Shown here: positions 29,196 to 33,771 of the stretch, piece after piece
Position numbering within the stretch: position 1 is the stretch's first letter
How the letters are laid out: every line of letters starts with the position of its first letter
Assembly (NCBI GenBank): GCA_035390125.1
Contig: DAOOTD010000001.1
Coordinates: 116,003 to 180,002, forward strand
Direction of reading: 5' to 3'
Length of the DNA stretch: 64,000 nt
DNA from: Candidatus Moraniibacteriota bacterium
Lineage (GTDB): Bacteria; Patescibacteriota; Minisyncoccia; Moranbacterales; GWC2-37-73
The notes under the pieces: model-generated
What the model saw: only the letters and a program-made list of their open reading frames with translations
Told to the model about the DNA's origin: nothing
Databases searched by the model: none
Made by a program: the position numbers and the translations under genes

Positions 29196-29694
29196 AGATT
29201 TTTACTGTTTACAATAAATAATATTTAGCCTATAATATTGGGATGTTCTTTTAATAATAAATCCAAAAGGAGAATCTAATGGAAAAAATCAAACAGTGGA
29301 AAACAAGCATCATAATTCAGGTGCTGGAAAAGATAATAAGAGTTTTTGAAATAAAGTTAAAAATTTACGCAATATTCTTTTAAGTCAGAAACAGGAGGTG
29401 CCAATGTTGTATGTTGTAAAATTAAAACTCGGATACGAAGTAATAACTGATGTGCCATATCTCCGATTTTTTCCTTCGATGATATCGTACAGACCCTTGG
29501 AGGATTGAAACAGAAAAACAAACGGGAGGAGAGAAAATAGGGCTTTAAGCTGAATAGCTTTAGCCCTATTTTTATTTGCTAAAAAATTTGAAACAAGTAA
29601 ATTTTACGAGAAATGCCGGGTTTTTTGTTGTAATTATGACTAAAAGATGCTATTCTGACTCCATAAAAAGGCTTTTTAAGCAATAATAAAGGTT

Positions 29695-30234
29695 ATGCAT
29701 AAGAAAAAGATATTTGTAGAAATAGCTATTCCGCAACAAATGAGGAAAAGACTTATAGAAAAGACCACCCAGTGGCCTGCTTTGCCGGTCAAATGGGTTA
29801 AGGAAAATAATTTGCACATAACCGTTTCTTTTATCGGTTATGTCGATGAAAGCATTATTCCCGAAATTTGTCAGAAAATTAGGGAAGTCACTGATAATTT
29901 TGAATCTTTTGAAATAAATTTTAACAGTATTGAACTGGGCCCTAGTACAGAAGATCCTAAAATGATTTGGCTGAGTGGAGAACCAAATCCAGAACTCGGA
30001 AGACTGAACGAGGCAATCGAAGATGCTCTTGGGATGCATCCTCAAAAACACAAAAATTTCAGGCCGCACATAACTCTGGGTAGGATAAGAAAATTAAAAT
30101 GGGATGAACTTCCAAAAAAACCGGTTATTGATGAAAAAATAAATTTGGCTATGACGGCAGATTCAGTTTTTGTTATGGAAAGCAAAGGCGGAGAGTCGGA
30201 ATATAATAAACTAGAAGAGTGCATTCTTTTGTGA
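29695..30234 (+). CDS. thpR: RNA 2',3'-cyclic phosphodiesterase (2H family, ThpR/LigT)
   Basis: Two H-x-T/S-x motifs (HITVSF and HITLGR), appropriately spaced. Confidence 0.75.
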   Translation: MHKKKIFVEIAIPQQMRKRLIEKTTQWPALPVKWVKENNLHITVSFIGYVDESIIPEICQKIREVTDNFESFEINFNSIELGPSTEDPKMIWLSGEPNPELGRLNEAIEDALGMHPQKHKNFRPHITLGRIRKLKWDELPKKPVIDEKINLAMTADSVFVMESKGGESEYNKLEECILL

Positions 30235-30241
30235 TAAGGAT

Positions 30242-32437
30242 ATGGATATTTTAGGAATCAGGATTGATAATTTTTCCAAAAAAGAAATTCTTGAAAAAAT
30301 AGAATTATTTTTGAGTGACGGAAAATTCCATCAGATTGCAACTGTAAATCCAGAATTCATACTGGAAACACAAAAAGATGAAGAATTTAAAAATATTTTA
30401 AATTCTTGTGATCTTAATATTGGAGATGGGATAGGAATCAAGTTTGCTTTTTTAAGATTCGGAAAATGGCTGAAAGAAAGAATGCCAGGAGCTGACTTGA
30501 TGCATGAAATTTTGAAAATTGCGGATGAAAAAAATTTTTCGGTATTTTTGGCCGTAAACAAGAACGGACTAAGTTCCTATAAAGAAGTAAAAAGTGCTTT
30601 AAGTTTGAAATACCCTAATGTACAATTTTTCGGAGATGATATTGATCCACGAAGTGTTGGTTATAAACTTCTAAATTCGGATAGTAATTTATTTTTTTGC
30701 AATTTCGGGGCTCCAGAGCAGGAAAAGTTTATTAATTCTCTGAAAAATGATATAATCGGATTGGCCATAGGAATAGGTGGCAGTTTTGATTTTATCACCG
30801 GAAAAGTGAAGCGTGCCCCAAAAATAATGCAAAATCTTGGCTTAGAATGGCTTTGGAGGCTCATTTTACAGCCAAAAAGAATAAAAAGAATAATCAATGC
30901 CGTTGTAATTTTTCCGGTAAAAATATTATTTTCCAAACAAATGAAAAGTTCAGAAAAAAAAGTAAGAGTACGTTTCGCACCGTCGCCGACCGGCTATATG
31001 CATGTCGGCAATTTCCGTACTGCGCTTTATGCCTATCTTTTTGCTAAAAAAAATAAAGGCGATTTTATTCTGAGGATTGAAGATACGGACCAAAAAAGAT
31101 ATGTCCAGGATGCTTTAGAAAAACTTATTGATATTATAAATTGGGCAGGCTTTGAATATTCTGAAGGAGTTTTTATTGAAAATGGAAAAGTTTTGCAGAA
31201 AGGGGATTTCGGGCCATATGTGCAATCGGAACGTCTGGATATATATAAAAAATATGCCGACGAACTTGTTGAAAGTGGCAAGGCTTATCATTGTTTCTGC
31301 ACGCCGGAAAAACTTGAACAGATGAGGAATGAACAGATAGCCAGCAAACAAGCCCCGATGTATAACAAGTGTTGCCTGAAATTAAGCGTTGAAGAAACTG
31401 CCAAAAGAATCGAACAAGGAGAAAAATATGTCATCCGCCAAAAAATAAACACGGAGGGATTTACGGAATATGAAGATTTAATCCGCGGAAAAGTAAAAAT
31501 AAAAAATGATTTATTGGATGACCAAGTGCTTCTTAAATCGGACGGTTATCCGACTTATAATTTTGCCAATGTCATCGATGATCATCTGATGGGGATTACT
31601 CATGTTATCCGTGGCGAGGAATATGTCTCCAGTACTCCAAAATATGTTCAATTGTACCAAAATTTTGGCTGGGAAATTCCTGAATTTGCACATTTACCGT
31701 TGCTTTTGAATTCTGACAAATCCAAACTTTCCAAACGGCAGGGGGATGTGTCGGTGGAAGATTATATCAGCAAAGGATATCTTAAAGAAGCAATCATTAA
31801 TTTCGTAGCACTCTTGGGATGGAATCCAGGGGAGGGAAGTGTGCAGGAAATTTTTTCAATACAAGAATTGATTGATAAATTCGAGCTTGGAAAAGTCCAT
31901 AAAGCCGGAGCGATTTTTGACCTGAAAAAATTAGACTGGATCAATGCGCAATATATTAAAAAAATGAGTGATGAAGATCTATATAAAAATGCACTGCGAT
32001 TTTTTGAGAAGAAGGATTTTTATACTAATGCTCAGCAAGAAAAAAAATCAGCAGAGTATTTGAAAAAAGTTCTGACAGTAGAAAAAGACAGACTCATAAA
32101 ATTTTCAGATGTCGGAGAGGAGAATAAATTTTTCTTTCAGGATATTTCGTGCAATAAAGAGATGCTGCGCTGGAAATCAATTACCGATGAGGAGATTAAA
32201 AATTCACTGGAAACTTCGGAAAAAGTCCTGGCTGGAATTTCCGGCGAGAACTGGAATTTGAAAAATTTAGAAGAGAAGCTGCTGGAAGCTGCAGGAGAAA
32301 AACGAGGGGATTTATTGTGGCCCCTTAGAGTAGCTCTAACGGGAGAAAAAAAATCACCCTCACCATTTGAAGTTGCTTGGGTGATTGGCAAAAAAGAAAC
32401 ATTAAAACGCATCAATCAGGCCTTGGGATTAATATAA
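30242..32437 (+). CDS. gltX: In-frame fusion of WecB/TagA/CpsF-family glycosyltransferase (GT26) and glutamyl-tRNA synthetase
   Basis: Residues 1-235 are GT26 (ends ...GLEWLWRLILQPKRIKRI). From MKSSEKKVRVRFAPSPTGYMHVGN (HIGH-type motif) onward it is a full GluRS, with KLSKR (KMSKS). No stop separates the two in this sequence. Confidence 0.7.
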   Translation: MDILGIRIDNFSKKEILEKIELFLSDGKFHQIATVNPEFILETQKDEEFKNILNSCDLNIGDGIGIKFAFLRFGKWLKERMPGADLMHEILKIADEKNFSVFLAVNKNGLSSYKEVKSALSLKYPNVQFFGDDIDPRSVGYKLLNSDSNLFFCNFGAPEQEKFINSLKNDIIGLAIGIGGSFDFITGKVKRAPKIMQNLGLEWLWRLILQPKRIKRIINAVVIFPVKILFSKQMKSSEKKVRVRFAPSPTGYMHVGNFRTALYAYLFAKKNKGDFILRIEDTDQKRYVQDALEKLIDIINWAGFEYSEGVFIENGKVLQKGDFGPYVQSERLDIYKKYADELVESGKAYHCFCTPEKLEQMRNEQIASKQAPMYNKCCLKLSVEETAKRIEQGEKYVIRQKINTEGFTEYEDLIRGKVKIKNDLLDDQVLLKSDGYPTYNFANVIDDHLMGITHVIRGEEYVSSTPKYVQLYQNFGWEIPEFAHLPLLLNSDKSKLSKRQGDVSVEDYISKGYLKEAIINFVALLGWNPGEGSVQEIFSIQELIDKFELGKVHKAGAIFDLKKLDWINAQYIKKMSDEDLYKNALRFFEKKDFYTNAQQEKKSAEYLKKVLTVEKDRLIKFSDVGEENKFFFQDISCNKEMLRWKSITDEEIKNSLETSEKVLAGISGENWNLKNLEEKLLEAAGEKRGDLLWPLRVALTGEKKSPSPFEVAWVIGKKETLKRINQALGLI

Positions 32438-32454
32438 GTTTAAAAGTGCAGATG

Positions 32455-33771
32455 AATATAAAAATAAAAAACAGCTTTACGGATAAAATTAAATTTCTCA
32501 TGGGAGCAATGTTGTTTTTTGCTGCCTTTTTAATTTTTTGCGGGGTCAAAGCTGAGAGCATAAACAATATTTCAGGTACAGGCTCTCTTTCTGCAGATGA
32601 CAAAGAAGAACTAAAAGAACTAGATGAAAAAGCCGAGACCTACAGAAAGATTATTGAGATCAAGCAAAAACAAGGAGAGACATTAAGCAACCAGATATCT
32701 ATAACAGATGCCAGTATAGGGCAGATAGAAAATCAGATGAAAATGATTTCAAAACAAATCGAAGATTTAAACGACCAAATAATAAGAATACAGAAAGAGA
32801 TAAAAGAAAATGAAGCTATGATTGAAGGGAATAAAGAATTGCTCGGTCAGATCATGCAGGTTTATTATGAATCAAGCAACACAAGTCCTTTTTTCACGTA
32901 CCTTTCCGGCGGAAATCTGAAATCTTTTATGGTAAAAGAAGACAGGATTTCACAGACAGGAGATAAAATAAAGGAGCTGATTGATATAATCAAAAAAATC
33001 AAGGAGGATCTGAATGAAGAAAACAATCAGCTTGATCAGAAAAAAAGTGAATTTTTGAGCAAGAATCAAGAATTGCAGGAAAAAAATGATGATTTGAATT
33101 CGATAAAAGATCAAAAACAGAGTCTTCTGAGTGAAACTCAAGGCGAAGAACAGCGTTATCAGAAGCTTTTGGCTAAGATTGAAGCACAAAAGAATGAATT
33201 GTTAAACATAGATGATTATTTTTCCGCCAGCGGACTTAGTGCAGATTCATATCCCAAACCTGATTCAAAATACTTTGCTTCAACCAGCTGGTATTATTCA
33301 CAATGGGACAGTAGATGGGGCAATAAAAACATAGGAAATACAAGAACTAAGATGAAAAATTACGGATGTGCAGTGACTTCTGTAGCCATGGTTTTCACTG
33401 AACATGGAGGTTCCATAACACCTGGATATCTTGCCAGTAAGCCCATATTTTATGGCGATCTTATAAACTGGCCAAGTTCATGGTCAAGTCCTAAAGTATC
33501 CTTAATTTCCAGCAAGTCTCATGGAAATGTAAGTTGGTCAACTATTGATAGCCAGATCAAAAAGGGTAATCCTGTCATTGTATATATTAAAAAAAGCAAC
33601 GGCAGTCAGGGACATTATGTTGTGATTCACCATAAGGACGCAGCAGGGAAGTATGTGGTTCATGATCCATACTTTGGAGCCAATATATTCTTGGATACTT
33701 CAAGAGCTTTGGTGGGTGCCTTAGGTTCTTCCAGTAAAACTTCAATAGATCAGATGATAATATATAATTAA
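32455..33771 (+). CDS. Secreted coiled-coil protein with C-terminal C39-like (papain-fold) peptidase domain
   Basis: The ATG at 32455 gives a signal peptide (the track ORF at 32377 overlaps gltX). Long coiled coil. YGCAVTSVAMV and GHYVVIH resemble the Cys/His of Peptidase_C39-like domains. Confidence 0.55.
   Translation, partial: NIKIKNSFTDKIKFLMGAMLFFAAFLIFCGVKAESINNISGTGSLSADDKEELKELDEKAETYRKIIEIKQKQGETLSNQISITDASIGQIENQMKMISKQIEDLNDQIIRIQKEIKENEAMIEGNKELLGQIMQVYYESSNTSPFFTYLSGGNLKSFMVKEDRISQTGDKIKELIDIIKKIKEDLNEENNQLDQKKSEFLSKNQELQEKNDDLNSIKDQKQSLLSETQGEEQRYQKLLAKIEAQKNELLNIDDYFSASGLSADSYPKPDSKYFASTSWYYSQWDSRWGNKNIGNTRTKMKNYGCAVTSVAMVFTEHGGSITPGYLASKPIFYGDLINWPSSWSSPKVSLISSKSHGNVSWSTIDSQIKKGNPVIVYIKKSNGSQGHYVVIHHKDAAGKYVVHDPYFGANIFLDTSRALVGALGSSSKTSIDQMIIYN

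What the first reader, a model, noticed from the sequence alone, without database searches (positions are those of the whole stretch)
30242..32437. In-frame fusion of a TagA/WecB-family glycosyltransferase with a complete glutamyl-tRNA synthetase
The first ~235 aa form a GT26 domain (wall teichoic acid / ECA type). Without any stop or SD it continues into MKSSEKKVRVRFAPSPTGYMHVGN...KLSKR, a full-length GluRS. Such a fusion is unusual. It would tether a wall-polymer glycosyltransferase to an essential aaRS, or the two may be produced separately by internal initiation. Two single-base homopolymer frameshifts appear elsewhere in this window, so a base-call error (for example a lost stop) must be excluded.
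Basis: seen in the sequence. Interest (0 to 1): 0.6.

Follow-up and report, generated by a model that had tools for sequence, protein, structure and literature searches.

The report
Stop-loss fusion of glycosyltransferase and GluRS
A single T-to-C change erased the stop codon between two abutting genes in a Moranbacteria (candidate phyla radiation) lineage, welding a cell-envelope glycosyltransferase onto the glutamyl-tRNA synthetase; the fusion is real and inherited, and similar fusions have arisen at least nine times in related bacteria.

Summary
ORF 30242-32437 (+) encodes 731 aa: a complete GT26 (WecB/TagA/CpsF) glycosyltransferase joined in frame to a complete bacterial GluRS.

It is not a base-call error:
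- The identical DNA occurs in three independent assemblies.
- Two diverged alleles (about 95% aa identity) carry the same junction.

The origin is resolved to one nucleotide. The closest unfused relatives read TCT AAA TAA|ATG, with the GT26 stop abutting the gltX start in the same frame. The fused clade reads TCC AAA CAA ATG.

Both halves have been under purifying selection since the fusion (dN/dS 0.18 and 0.08). All conserved TagA and GluRS catalytic residues are intact.

The old gltX ATG (30941, not 30942) has the most start-like context of 227 internal in-frame ATGs in this Shine-Dalgarno-poor genome. Free GluRS from internal initiation is therefore plausible but unproven.

The fusion is not unique. 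Exhaustive searches found at least 15 further fused clusters in Patescibacteria. They fall into nine polyphyletic clades with different junctions. A MurG(GT28)-GluRS fusion also exists.

Best reading: a tolerated bifunctional fusion that recurs because gltX sits tightly packed behind envelope glycosyltransferase genes. A selected functional coupling is not excluded.

The parts
30242..32437 (+). Fused ORF, 731 aa plus TAA stop: GT26 glycosyltransferase joined to GluRS
   Evidence: ORF list and sequence. Pfam and NCBIfam domains. The identical protein is in NCBI as HOW60273.1 and HRZ33841.1, annotated only as glutamate--tRNA ligase [Candidatus Moranbacteria bacterium].
30242..30940 (+). GT26 (WecB/TagA/CpsF) half, aa 1-233, full length
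   Evidence: Aligns to full-length T. italicus TagA (7mpk), residues 4-239 of 244, E=4.5e-39. The conserved residues T34, N36, D62, R80 and Q160/E161 are present. dN/dS is 0.18 against the other fused allele.
30821..30937 (+). C-terminal appendage of the GT26 half (aa ~194-232). In TagA this segment binds the membrane and completes the active site. Here it carries R206, R213 and R216.
   Evidence: Alignment to 7mpk. Role of the appendage and of Arg214/221/224 from PMC6493773. AF2 predicts helices at 202-209 and 211-229, with pLDDT 50-66.
30938..30940 (+). CAA (Gln233): the former TAA stop codon of the GT26 gene
   Evidence: Junction alignment: the unfused relatives L005/6, L007/8 and L063/64 read TCT AAA TAA|ATG. 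The window, L003 and L004 read TCC AAA CAA ATG.
30941..30943 (+). ATG (Met234): the ancestral gltX start codon, now internal and a candidate internal initiation site
   Evidence: It is the gltX start in unfused relatives. Its start-context score ranks 1 of 227 internal in-frame ATGs and lies above the median of true starts. Upstream A+T is 0.80. Local MFE is -2.1 kcal/mol, against -4.5 for true starts and -8.5 for internal ATGs.
30941..32437 (+). GluRS half, aa 234-731 (498 aa): catalytic domain at 30959-31939 and anticodon-binding domain at 32018-32425
   Evidence: TIGR00464 scores 544 bits over the full-length model. It is 85% identical to standalone 497-498-aa GluRS of relatives. dN/dS is 0.079.
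31001..31012 (+). HIGH-type signature (H254-V-G-N257) of the class I synthetase
   Evidence: Read from the sequence. H254 and G256 are invariant across six fused proteins.
31724..31738 (+). KMSKS-type signature (K495-L-S-K-R499)
   Evidence: Read from the sequence. It is invariant across the fused proteins.
29695..30234 (+). Upstream LigT/2H-phosphoesterase gene, a conserved neighbour that is probably in the same operon
   Evidence: Pfam PF02834/PF13563 on the called gene. The synteny is conserved in L004-L010, L063-L066 and L070.
32452..33771 (+). Downstream coiled-coil plus Peptidase_C39_2 cell-wall hydrolase-like gene, a conserved neighbour. Its start is ambiguous: 32377 TTG, 32452 ATG or 32500 ATG.
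   Evidence: Gene callers disagree between 464, 439 and 423 aa. Distant fused loci carry a coiled-coil Peptidase_M23 gene at the equivalent position.

Best explanation
This is a real, recent evolutionary gene fusion.

**How it arose.** In the ancestor, a GT26 glycosyltransferase gene ended with TAA directly abutting the ATG of gltX, in the same reading frame. One T-to-C transition changed TAA to CAA, so ribosomes now read through and make a 731-aa two-enzyme polypeptide.

**What the protein probably does (inferred).**
- Each half keeps its ancestral job.
- The N-terminal half is a peripheral-membrane GT26 enzyme that probably transfers a sugar onto an undecaprenyl-PP-linked acceptor.
- The C-terminal half is the GluRS that charges tRNA-Glu, and perhaps tRNA-Gln.
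- About 10 flexible residues connect the two.
- The old gltX start site is untouched and looks like a normal start for this SD-poor genome, so some free GluRS is probably also made by internal initiation.

**Why it recurs.** In these Patescibacteria, gltX lies immediately downstream of an envelope glycosyltransferase gene, with zero, overlapping or tiny spacers. Fusions of this pair therefore arise repeatedly and are tolerated. The window's case is the youngest and most cleanly resolved example.

**Shown versus inferred.**
- Shown: the fusion is real, the one-nucleotide origin, purifying selection on both halves, intact catalytic residues, and recurrence.
- Inferred: both enzyme activities, membrane tethering of GluRS, internal initiation, and the fusion being selectively near-neutral.
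For: **Reality of the fusion**
- The DNA is identical in three independent assemblies.
- The fused alleles P0001 and P0404 differ by 37 and 42 aa but share the junction.

**Origin**
- Three unfused lineages read TCT AAA TAA|ATG, against TCC AAA CAA ATG in the fused clade.
- The synteny LigT, GT26, gltX, hydrolase is conserved.

**Function retained**
- dN/dS between fused alleles is 0.18 for GT26 (25 synonymous and 21 non-synonymous differences) and 0.079 for GluRS.
- The TagA residues T37, N39, D65, R83, Q167, E168, R214, R221 and R224 all have conserved equivalents.
- HIGH and KMSKS motifs are intact, and the gltX_bact model scores 544 bits.
- AF2 folds both domains and gives pLDDT below 50 only at residues 217-221 and 227-238 around the junction. 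pTM is 0.47, so there is no confident inter-domain packing.

**Internal start**
- Context rank is 1 of 227, A+T is 0.80 and MFE is -2.1 kcal/mol.
- Only 6 of 63 genes use a strong SD.
- All 17 fused proteins, in nine clades, keep a Met 2-12 aa before the RxRFAPSPTG motif.

**Recurrence**
- Further fused proteins: P0241, P0243, P0244, P0245 and P0405-P0413, P0415.
- A GluRS-domain NJ tree gives nine fused-only clades and 9 Fitch changes in 30 of 30 bootstraps.
- Junction lengths equal the standalone GT26 tail (34 aa) plus the GluRS N-terminus (5 aa) in six groups. The other groups carry translated spacers.
- GT26 is directly upstream of gltX in every relative with at least 60% GluRS identity, with gaps from -4 to about 600 nt.
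Against: - No expression data exist. Neither the 731-aa polypeptide, nor free GluRS, nor either activity has been observed.
- In TagA the C-terminal appendage must fold onto the membrane to complete the active site (PMC6493773). A 57-kDa enzyme attached about 2 residues after that appendage could impair it.
- The GT26 half shows a hint of acceleration in the fused lineage: 30 versus 14 unique changes against L065, p=0.016. The difference is not significant against L063 or L005.
- Nine independent origins, plus one old fused clade (P0243/P0411/P0412, GluRS 60-73% identical), may be more than neutral tolerance predicts. This leaves room for a selective advantage.
- I could not check whether the genome has a second gltX outside the 64-kb window.
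Confidence: 0.8

Rival explanations
1. Selected functional coupling. The fusion, and the conserved GT26-gltX adjacency behind it, exists because placing GluRS at the membrane next to an undecaprenyl-PP-sugar glycosyltransferase is advantageous. One version channels Glu-tRNA into an envelope-modification step. Another ties translation capacity stoichiometrically to envelope synthesis.
For: - There are nine polyphyletic GT26-GluRS fusion clades.
- One clade is old enough for its GluRS halves to have diverged to 60-73% identity while staying fused.
- An independent fusion joins GluRS to a different fold with the same substrate class: MurG/GT28, found at 935 aa in at least 8 cluster members.
- gltX is flanked on the other side by a cell-wall hydrolase gene (C39_2 or M23) in all these contexts.
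Against: - The nearest relatives of the window lineage function with separate genes, as do most Moranbacteria.
- Fused clusters number about 15 among tens of thousands of GluRS representatives.
- Linkers are either nil or look like arbitrary translated spacers.
- AF2 shows no inter-domain interface.
- No tRNA-dependent transferase (Fem or MprF type) is present in the neighbourhood.
- Tight adjacency alone predicts recurrent accidental fusions.
Confidence: 0.13
2. The fused polypeptide is a minor or non-functional by-product. The essential GluRS is supplied almost entirely by internal initiation at ATG 30941, or by a second gltX elsewhere in the genome. The GT26 enzyme works despite, or is impaired by, its appended tail.
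For: - The internal ATG has the best start-like context of 227 internal in-frame ATGs and minimal local structure.
- The genome initiates mostly without an SD.
- A Met is retained at the old start in all nine fusion clades, including the old one.
- The GT26 half shows a slight rate acceleration.
Against: - Ribosomes translating the GT26 half must read through into GluRS, because no stop exists in frame. The fusion polypeptide is therefore made whenever GT26 is made.
- GT26 dN/dS of 0.18 argues that this half is still needed.
- The MurG-GluRS fusion has no Met near its junction, which shows that a fused GluRS can suffice.
- No second gltX lies in the window.
Confidence: 0.05
3. Sequencing or assembly artefact: a miscalled base removed a real stop codon.
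For: The difference from the unfused relatives is a single base.
Against: - The sequence is identical over 11-14 kb in three independent assemblies, and the protein is called on 11 contigs.
- The same CAA is present in a strain with 110 nt differences across the ORF.
- A third allele, P0404, has the same junction.
- The site is not a homopolymer indel but a substitution in ...CCAAACAAATG....
Confidence: 0.01
4. The GT26 half is a decaying remnant, so the protein is simply a GluRS with a dead N-terminal extension.
For: The TarA equivalog score is below its cut-off (132 against 350). There is a mild rate acceleration.
Against: - dN/dS is 0.18 since the fusion.
- All nine conserved TagA active-site and appendage residues are intact.
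- D62, Q160, E161, R206, R213 and R216 are invariant across six independent fused proteins.
- The AF2 GT26 core has pLDDT of about 90.
- Unfused orthologs in Moranbacteria score similarly against the TarA model family, so the low score reflects lineage divergence, not decay.
Confidence: 0.01

Closest known systems
TagA/TarA (GT26) of Thermoanaerobacter italicus, PDB 7mpk / 5wb4 (PMC6493773, PMC8784642)
   Same: The fold family and length match: aa 1-232 align to residues 4-239 of 244. The catalytic Asp, the Thr/Asn/Arg/Gln-Glu pocket residues, and the C-terminal appendage with three Arg are all present.
   Different: It scores far below the TarA equivalog cut-off (132 against 350), so donor and acceptor specificity are unknown. 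Its C-terminus is not free but continues into a 498-aa enzyme. The organism is a CPR bacterium, for which no wall teichoic acid was looked for or found here.
Standalone bacterial GluRS (gltX, TIGR00464)
   Same: The match to the model is full length, with HIGH and KMSKS motifs, a Cys cluster and an anticodon-binding domain. It is 85% identical to the standalone GluRS of sister lineages.
   Different: It carries a 233-aa N-terminal enzyme domain. Its N-terminal Met is internal.
Eukaryotic multi-domain GluRS: the EPRS (GluRS-ProRS) fusion and GST-like N-terminal extensions (own knowledge; reviews PMC4394549 and PMC7373986 were listed but not read)
   Same: A GluRS is covalently joined to another functional module through a flexible linker. 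An N-terminal appendage on GluRS is tolerated.
   Different: Here the partner is an unrelated cell-envelope glycosyltransferase, not a translation factor or another aaRS. The lineage is bacterial, the fusion is recent, and it originates from one nucleotide change.
Other GT26-GluRS fusions in Patescibacteria found here (for example MBU0649443.1 = P0241, and P0405-P0412)
   Same: The domain order and composition are the same. A Met is retained at the old GluRS start. The neighbourhood is similar: LigT upstream and a coiled-coil hydrolase downstream.
   Different: They are only 42-57% identical to the window protein, have different junctions and linkers, and fall in separate clades on the GluRS tree. 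They are independent events, not orthologous fusions.
MurG(GT28)-GluRS fusion of Parcubacteria (KKR78987.1 = P0252)
   Same: A peripheral-membrane UDP-sugar:Und-PP-acceptor glycosyltransferase is fused N-terminally to a full GluRS, and an M23 peptidase gene follows.
   Different: The GT fold is different (GT-B GT28). The linker is about 65 aa, K/E/P-rich, with no Met at the junction. The context is the dcw cluster (MurD-FtsW).

Membership tests
GT26 glycosyltransferase (WecB/TagA/CpsF, PF03808 / TIGR00696) | Significant match to the family profile above its curated cut-off | tested here: met
   PF03808 scores 120 bits against GA 27.4. TIGR00696 scores 113 bits against 69.
GT26 glycosyltransferase (WecB/TagA/CpsF, PF03808 / TIGR00696) | Catalytic base Asp65 and pocket residues Thr37, Asn39, Arg83, Gln167, Glu168 (T. 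italicus numbering) | tested here: met
   D62, T34, N36, R80, Q160 and E161 are present.
GT26 glycosyltransferase (WecB/TagA/CpsF, PF03808 / TIGR00696) | C-terminal appendage supplying Arg214/Arg221/Arg224 and an amphipathic membrane-binding helix | tested here: met
   R206, R213 and R216 are present, with helices predicted at 202-209 and 211-229. Membrane binding itself was not tested.
TagA/TarA sensu stricto (UDP-ManNAc:lipid-alpha ManNAc transferase, NF041710 equivalog) | Score at or above the equivalog cut-off (350 bits) | tested here: not met
   It scores 132.5 bits. It should be called a GT26-family enzyme, not TagA.
TagA/TarA sensu stricto (UDP-ManNAc:lipid-alpha ManNAc transferase, NF041710 equivalog) | Transfers ManNAc to GlcNAc-PP-undecaprenol; a WTA pathway (TagO, TagB etc.) is present | not testable with these tools
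   No WTA genes lie in the immediate neighbourhood. The whole genome was not available.
Bacterial glutamate--tRNA ligase (TIGR00464 gltX_bact equivalog) | Full-length match above the equivalog cut-off | tested here: met
   It scores 543.9 bits against 289.95, covering model positions 1-467 of 470.
Bacterial glutamate--tRNA ligase (TIGR00464 gltX_bact equivalog) | Class I signature motifs HIGH and KMSKS, plus the anticodon-binding domain | tested here: met
   HVGN is at 254-257 and KLSKR at 495-499. PF19269 scores 86 bits.
Bacterial glutamate--tRNA ligase (TIGR00464 gltX_bact equivalog) | Charges tRNA-Glu (discriminating or non-discriminating) | not testable with these tools
   Some sources name close homologs 'nondiscriminating'. 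No tRNA genes lie in the window.
GluQRS / YadB (tRNA glutamyl-Q34 synthetase) | Truncated GluRS paralog lacking the anticodon-binding domain; score above the TIGR03838 cut-off | tested here: not met
   It scores 205.8 bits against 276.7, and the anticodon-binding domain is present.
Stop-loss fusion of adjacent operon genes ('Rosetta stone' protein) | Orthologs of the two halves are separate, adjacent, co-oriented genes in close relatives | tested here: met
   L005-L010, L063-L066 and L011-L017.
Stop-loss fusion of adjacent operon genes ('Rosetta stone' protein) | The junction differs from the unfused state by a mutation that removes the stop and keeps the frame | tested here: met
   TAA became CAA at 30938-30940. 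The genes were already in frame and abutting.
Stop-loss fusion of adjacent operon genes ('Rosetta stone' protein) | The fused state is inherited (more than one diverged allele) and under purifying selection | tested here: met
   There are three alleles. dN/dS is 0.18 and 0.079.

The most novel reading that the evidence does not exclude
GluRS in a subset of Patescibacteria is functionally coupled to synthesis of undecaprenyl-PP-linked envelope precursors. The conserved placement of gltX between an Und-PP-sugar glycosyltransferase (GT26 or MurG) and a cell-wall hydrolase would reflect a membrane-localised GluRS. So would its repeated covalent fusion to those glycosyltransferases: at least nine times to GT26 and once to GT28. 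Such a GluRS would either supply Glu-tRNA to an as yet unknown tRNA-dependent envelope modification or tie translation capacity to envelope growth in these minimal cells.
Probability: 0.1. Interest if true: 0.8.

Novelty: new variant of a known kind. Interest (0 to 1): 0.45.

Why it matters
- **A clean example of enzyme birth by fusion.** The window gives an unusually clear, one-nucleotide-resolved case of a two-enzyme protein forming. The ancestral state, the mutation, three descendant alleles and post-fusion selection are all visible.
- **An essential enzyme may be membrane-tethered.** The presumed sole GluRS is now covalently tied, at least in part, to a membrane-activated glycosyltransferase. 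This gives a natural test of how much appendage an aaRS and a TagA-type C-terminal switch can tolerate.
- **The pattern is unrecognised.** The same pair has fused at least nine times in Patescibacteria, and MurG has fused to GluRS once. Databases label these proteins simply 'glutamate--tRNA ligase'. The pattern either quantifies how operon compaction drives fusions in reduced genomes or points to an undescribed link between tRNA charging and envelope synthesis.
- **Practical consequence.** Annotation pipelines lose the GT26 function in these genomes, which would make envelope-pathway reconstructions for CPR bacteria look more incomplete than they are.

Tried and rejected
- **First fused alignment.** A 100-sequence MAFFT alignment (A2) misplaced the GT26-only sequences, giving about 20% identity. 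I discarded it and rebuilt it as A3 for structure prediction.
- **First tree script.** It timed out. I reran it with fewer sequences and vectorised distances.
- **Internal promoter.** A sigma-70-like site lies at 30865-30894, 47 nt upstream of the internal ATG. I rejected it as evidence because the region has fewer promoter-like hits than shuffled sequence (13 against 20 ± 3.9). By eye on alignment A1, its -10 hexamer is also not conserved in L005.
- **RNA elements.** The 64 kb has no tRNA genes and no Rfam hits at gathering threshold. Nothing RNA-based explains the junction.
- **Alternative genetic code.** Rejected. TAA (50), TAG (8) and TGA (5) all terminate ORFs in the window, and the junction codon is CAA, not a stop.
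- **Literature.** Three searches found no description of a GT26-GluRS or MurG-GluRS fusion. The library is incomplete, so this is absence of evidence only.
- **Fold search.** Not run on the AF2 model. Both domains are already identified by sequence with high confidence.
- **Not attempted.**
  - Searching the rest of the genome for a second gltX.
Full report
**1. The observation**

The window contains one uninterrupted ORF at 30242..32437 on the + strand. It encodes 731 aa and ends in TAA.
- Pfam places a Glyco_tran_WecG (GT26) domain at aa 57-217, the class I Glu/Gln synthetase catalytic domain at aa 240-566, and the GluRS anticodon-binding domain at aa 593-728.
- NCBIfam's bacterial gltX equivalog scores 544 bits against a cut-off of 290, over model positions 1-467 of 470. 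The GT26 superfamily model is above its cut-off. The TarA model aligns over positions 9-244 of 247 but reaches only 132 bits against a cut-off of 350.
- Against solved structures, aa 1-232 align to residues 4-239 of the 244-aa full-length TagA of T. italicus (7mpk, E=4.5e-39).

Both enzymes are therefore complete, and they are joined with essentially no linker: ...VKILFSKQ-MKSSEKKVRVRFAPSPTG....

**2. It is not an error**

- The exact 731-aa protein is called on 11 contigs. The three loci I retrieved come from two JGI metagenomes and one Logan assembly, and they are identical to the window over 11-14 kb.
- A different strain from an unrelated ENA assembly (L004) differs at 110 of 2196 nt and 37 aa, and it has the same open junction.
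- A third allele, P0404, differs at 42 aa and also has the same junction.
- The protein is already in NCBI (HOW60273.1, HRZ33841.1) as 'glutamate--tRNA ligase [Candidatus Moranbacteria bacterium]', with the GT26 half unmentioned.

**3. How it arose**

The next-closest GluRS proteins (78-85% identity) are standalone proteins of 494-498 aa.
- In their contigs the gene order is LigT, GT26, gltX, then a coiled-coil Peptidase_C39_2 gene, as in the window.
- Three unfused lineages (L005/6, L007/8, L063/64) read ...TTT TCT AAA TAA|ATG.... The GT26 stop directly abuts the gltX start, in the same frame.
- The fused clade reads ...TTT TCC AAA CAA ATG.... One T-to-C transition in the stop codon is sufficient and is the only change needed.
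- Other relatives show a 4-nt overlap (ATGA; L065/66), spacers of 17-39 nt, or an inserted small membrane-protein or NUDIX-like ORF giving gaps of about 470-600 nt.
- GT26 lies directly upstream of gltX in every sampled genome with at least 60% GluRS identity. In more distant genomes it is adjacent only in one Parcubacteria contig (L024); in L059 a weak GT26 match lies about 1.7 kb upstream.

**4. Is the fused gene functional?**

- Between the two fused alleles, dN/dS is 0.18 for the GT26 half (25 synonymous and 21 non-synonymous differences) and 0.079 for the GluRS half. Both halves have been under purifying selection since the fusion.
- Every residue highlighted for TagA catalysis has its equivalent here: Thr37, Asn39, Asp65, Arg83, Gln167, Glu168 and the appendage arginines 214, 221 and 224 (PMC6493773). 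The equivalents are T34, N36, D62, R80, Q160, E161, R206, R213 and R216.
- HIGH (HVGN) and KMSKS (KLSKR) are intact.
- A relative-rate test hints that GT26 is slightly faster in the fused lineage: 30 versus 14 unique changes against L065, p=0.016. The difference is not significant against two other relatives. GluRS shows no acceleration.
- AF2, run on a checked alignment (A3), gives a mean pLDDT of 76. The GT26 core is at about 90. The appendage forms helices at 202-209 and 211-229 with pLDDT 50-66. Residues 227-238 fall below 50. GluRS strand beta-1 lies at 242-245. pTM is 0.47, so there is no confident inter-domain packing: two beads on a short string.
- One caveat comes from the TagA literature. 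The C-terminal appendage must fold onto the membrane to complete the active site. Here it ends about 2 residues before a 57-kDa passenger.

**5. One product or two?**

- This genome barely uses Shine-Dalgarno sequences. Only 6 of 63 genes have a strong core. Typical leaders are about 80% A+T.
- I trained a start-context matrix on 56 ATG starts and scored it against 227 internal in-frame ATGs. It ranks ATG 30941 first among the internal ATGs and above the median of real starts.
- Upstream A+T at 30941 is 0.80. The local folding energy is -2.1 kcal/mol, against means of -4.5 for real starts and -8.5 for internal ATGs.
- The site was a genuine start until recently and has not changed. Internal initiation giving free GluRS is therefore plausible, but it is an inference.
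- Whenever the GT26 half is translated, the ribosome must continue into GluRS, so the fusion polypeptide is also made.
- The window holds no second gltX or GT26. The rest of the genome could not be checked.

**6. The fusion is not unique**

- An exhaustive HMMER scan of 1.84 billion cluster representatives, using the full protein as query, returned co-linear full-length hits at only 43-49% identity: P0241, P0243, P0244 and P0245. Pfam confirms GT26 plus GluRS in each.
- A profile search built from these found ten more fused 90%-identity clusters (P0405-P0413, P0415), several with multiple members or contigs.
- P0409 is found in two assemblies.
- Junctions differ between groups. Six groups are end-to-end joins. 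Their distance from the GLEW anchor to the RxRF motif is 35-44 aa. That matches the 34-aa standalone GT26 tail plus the 5-aa GluRS N-terminus.
- The remaining groups have anchor-to-motif distances of 58-71 aa and carry what look like translated intergenic spacers.
- All 17 proteins retain a Met 2-12 aa before the GluRS motif.
- On an NJ tree of GluRS domains (81 sequences, 475 columns) the fused proteins form nine separate clades. This requires nine state changes in 30 of 30 bootstraps.
- For most groups the nearest sampled unfused GluRS is closer than any other fused group.
- One clade (P0243/P0411/P0412) has stayed fused while its GluRS halves diverged to 60-73% identity. A fused GluRS can therefore be stable over long periods.
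- Distant fused loci keep a similar neighbourhood: ClpB, (LigT), GT26::GluRS, then a coiled-coil Peptidase_M23 gene.
- Separately, a MurG(GT28)-GluRS fusion of 935 aa occurs in at least 8 cluster members in Parcubacteria. Its context is MurD, FtsW, MurG::GluRS, HD, then M23. It has a K/E/P-rich linker of about 65 aa and no junction Met.

**7. Interpretation**

- The best-supported account is a tolerated stop-loss fusion of two tightly packed, co-transcribed genes. Each half keeps its own function, and a fraction of GluRS is probably still made on its own.
- Recurrence follows naturally from the conserved, near-zero-spacer arrangement of an envelope glycosyltransferase gene followed by gltX in these reduced genomes.
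- Three observations do not fully reduce to accident: the number of independent origins, one long-lived fused clade, and the parallel MurG fusion. Like TagA, MurG is a peripheral-membrane enzyme that uses UDP-sugars on undecaprenyl-PP-linked acceptors.
- I give about 0.1-0.13 to a selected functional coupling between GluRS and envelope synthesis.
- An assembly artefact and a dead-domain remnant are each about 0.01.

**8. Novelty and score**

- Gene fusion by stop loss and multi-domain aaRSs are both known kinds. An aaRS fused to a cell-envelope glycosyltransferase was not found in three literature searches, and it is invisible in current annotation.
- I rate it a new variant of a known kind, with interest 0.45. 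It is a real, cleanly explained and mildly surprising feature, with an unexpected wider pattern worth a systematic look. The default mechanism is ordinary.

Noticed in passing
L071/L072 4001-6808 (P0252 = KKR78987.1, Parcubacteria GW2011_GWA2_40_8): A 935-aa MurG(GT28 N+C domains)-GluRS fusion, in the context MurD-FtsW-MurG::GluRS-HD-Peptidase_M23. It is present at full length in at least 8 cluster members on many contigs. The linker is about 65 aa, K/E/P-rich, with no Met at the junction.
   Followed up: partly
window, all 63 long ORFs: The genome is Shine-Dalgarno-poor. Only 6 of 63 genes have a GGAG/GAGG-type core upstream, and most have leaders of about 80% A+T such as AAATAAAAAT-ATG. Stop usage is TAA 50, TAG 8, TGA 5.
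   Followed up: partly
L063 1480-3756 (ENA ERZ28614920 scaffold_18344): A mosaic relative. Its GT26 is the closest unfused one to the window (78%), and it shares the TAA|ATG junction and the first ~10 gltX codons. However, the rest of its GluRS (525 aa) is only 61% identical, against 81-85% for other relatives. This suggests gltX replacement or recombination just downstream of the junction.
   Followed up: no
window 32377-33771; L068 6243-7469; L070 6180-7439: The gene after gltX is always a coiled-coil (PcsB/CCDC-like) cell-wall hydrolase, but the catalytic domain differs. It is Peptidase_C39_2 in the Moranbacteria relatives and Peptidase_M23 in distant fused lineages. In the window its start is called three different ways: 32377 TTG, 32452 ATG and 32500 ATG.
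   Followed up: no
window 29196-29694: A gap of about 500 nt without ORFs lies between the Gmad2-domain gene and LigT. It contains the best sigma-70-like site of the region (TTTACA-17-TATAAT at 29208-29236). No Rfam or tRNA hit is present.
   Followed up: no
window 1-64000: No tRNA gene and no Rfam family at gathering threshold anywhere in the 64 kb.
   Followed up: yes
P0414 (684 aa, ENA, contig 4635 bp): A GluRS with an internal near-exact tandem duplication of about 190 aa of the catalytic domain (AEQLVAEGKAYYCFCTEERLEAL... occurs twice). It is either a real partial duplication or an assembly repeat artefact.
   Followed up: no
L011, L012, L014 (between GT26 and gltX): In some Moranbacteria a small predicted membrane protein of about 140-180 aa (conserved ...TIYLY...NTG(L/M)KY..FP.AEK... 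motif) is inserted between GT26 and gltX. In L015 the insert is a NUDIX-like ORF.
   Followed up: no
Gene calls for the VKOR/TspO/Pyr_excise region differ between L001 and L002 although the DNA is identical, so at least some apparent discrepancies are gene-caller differences.
   Followed up: no
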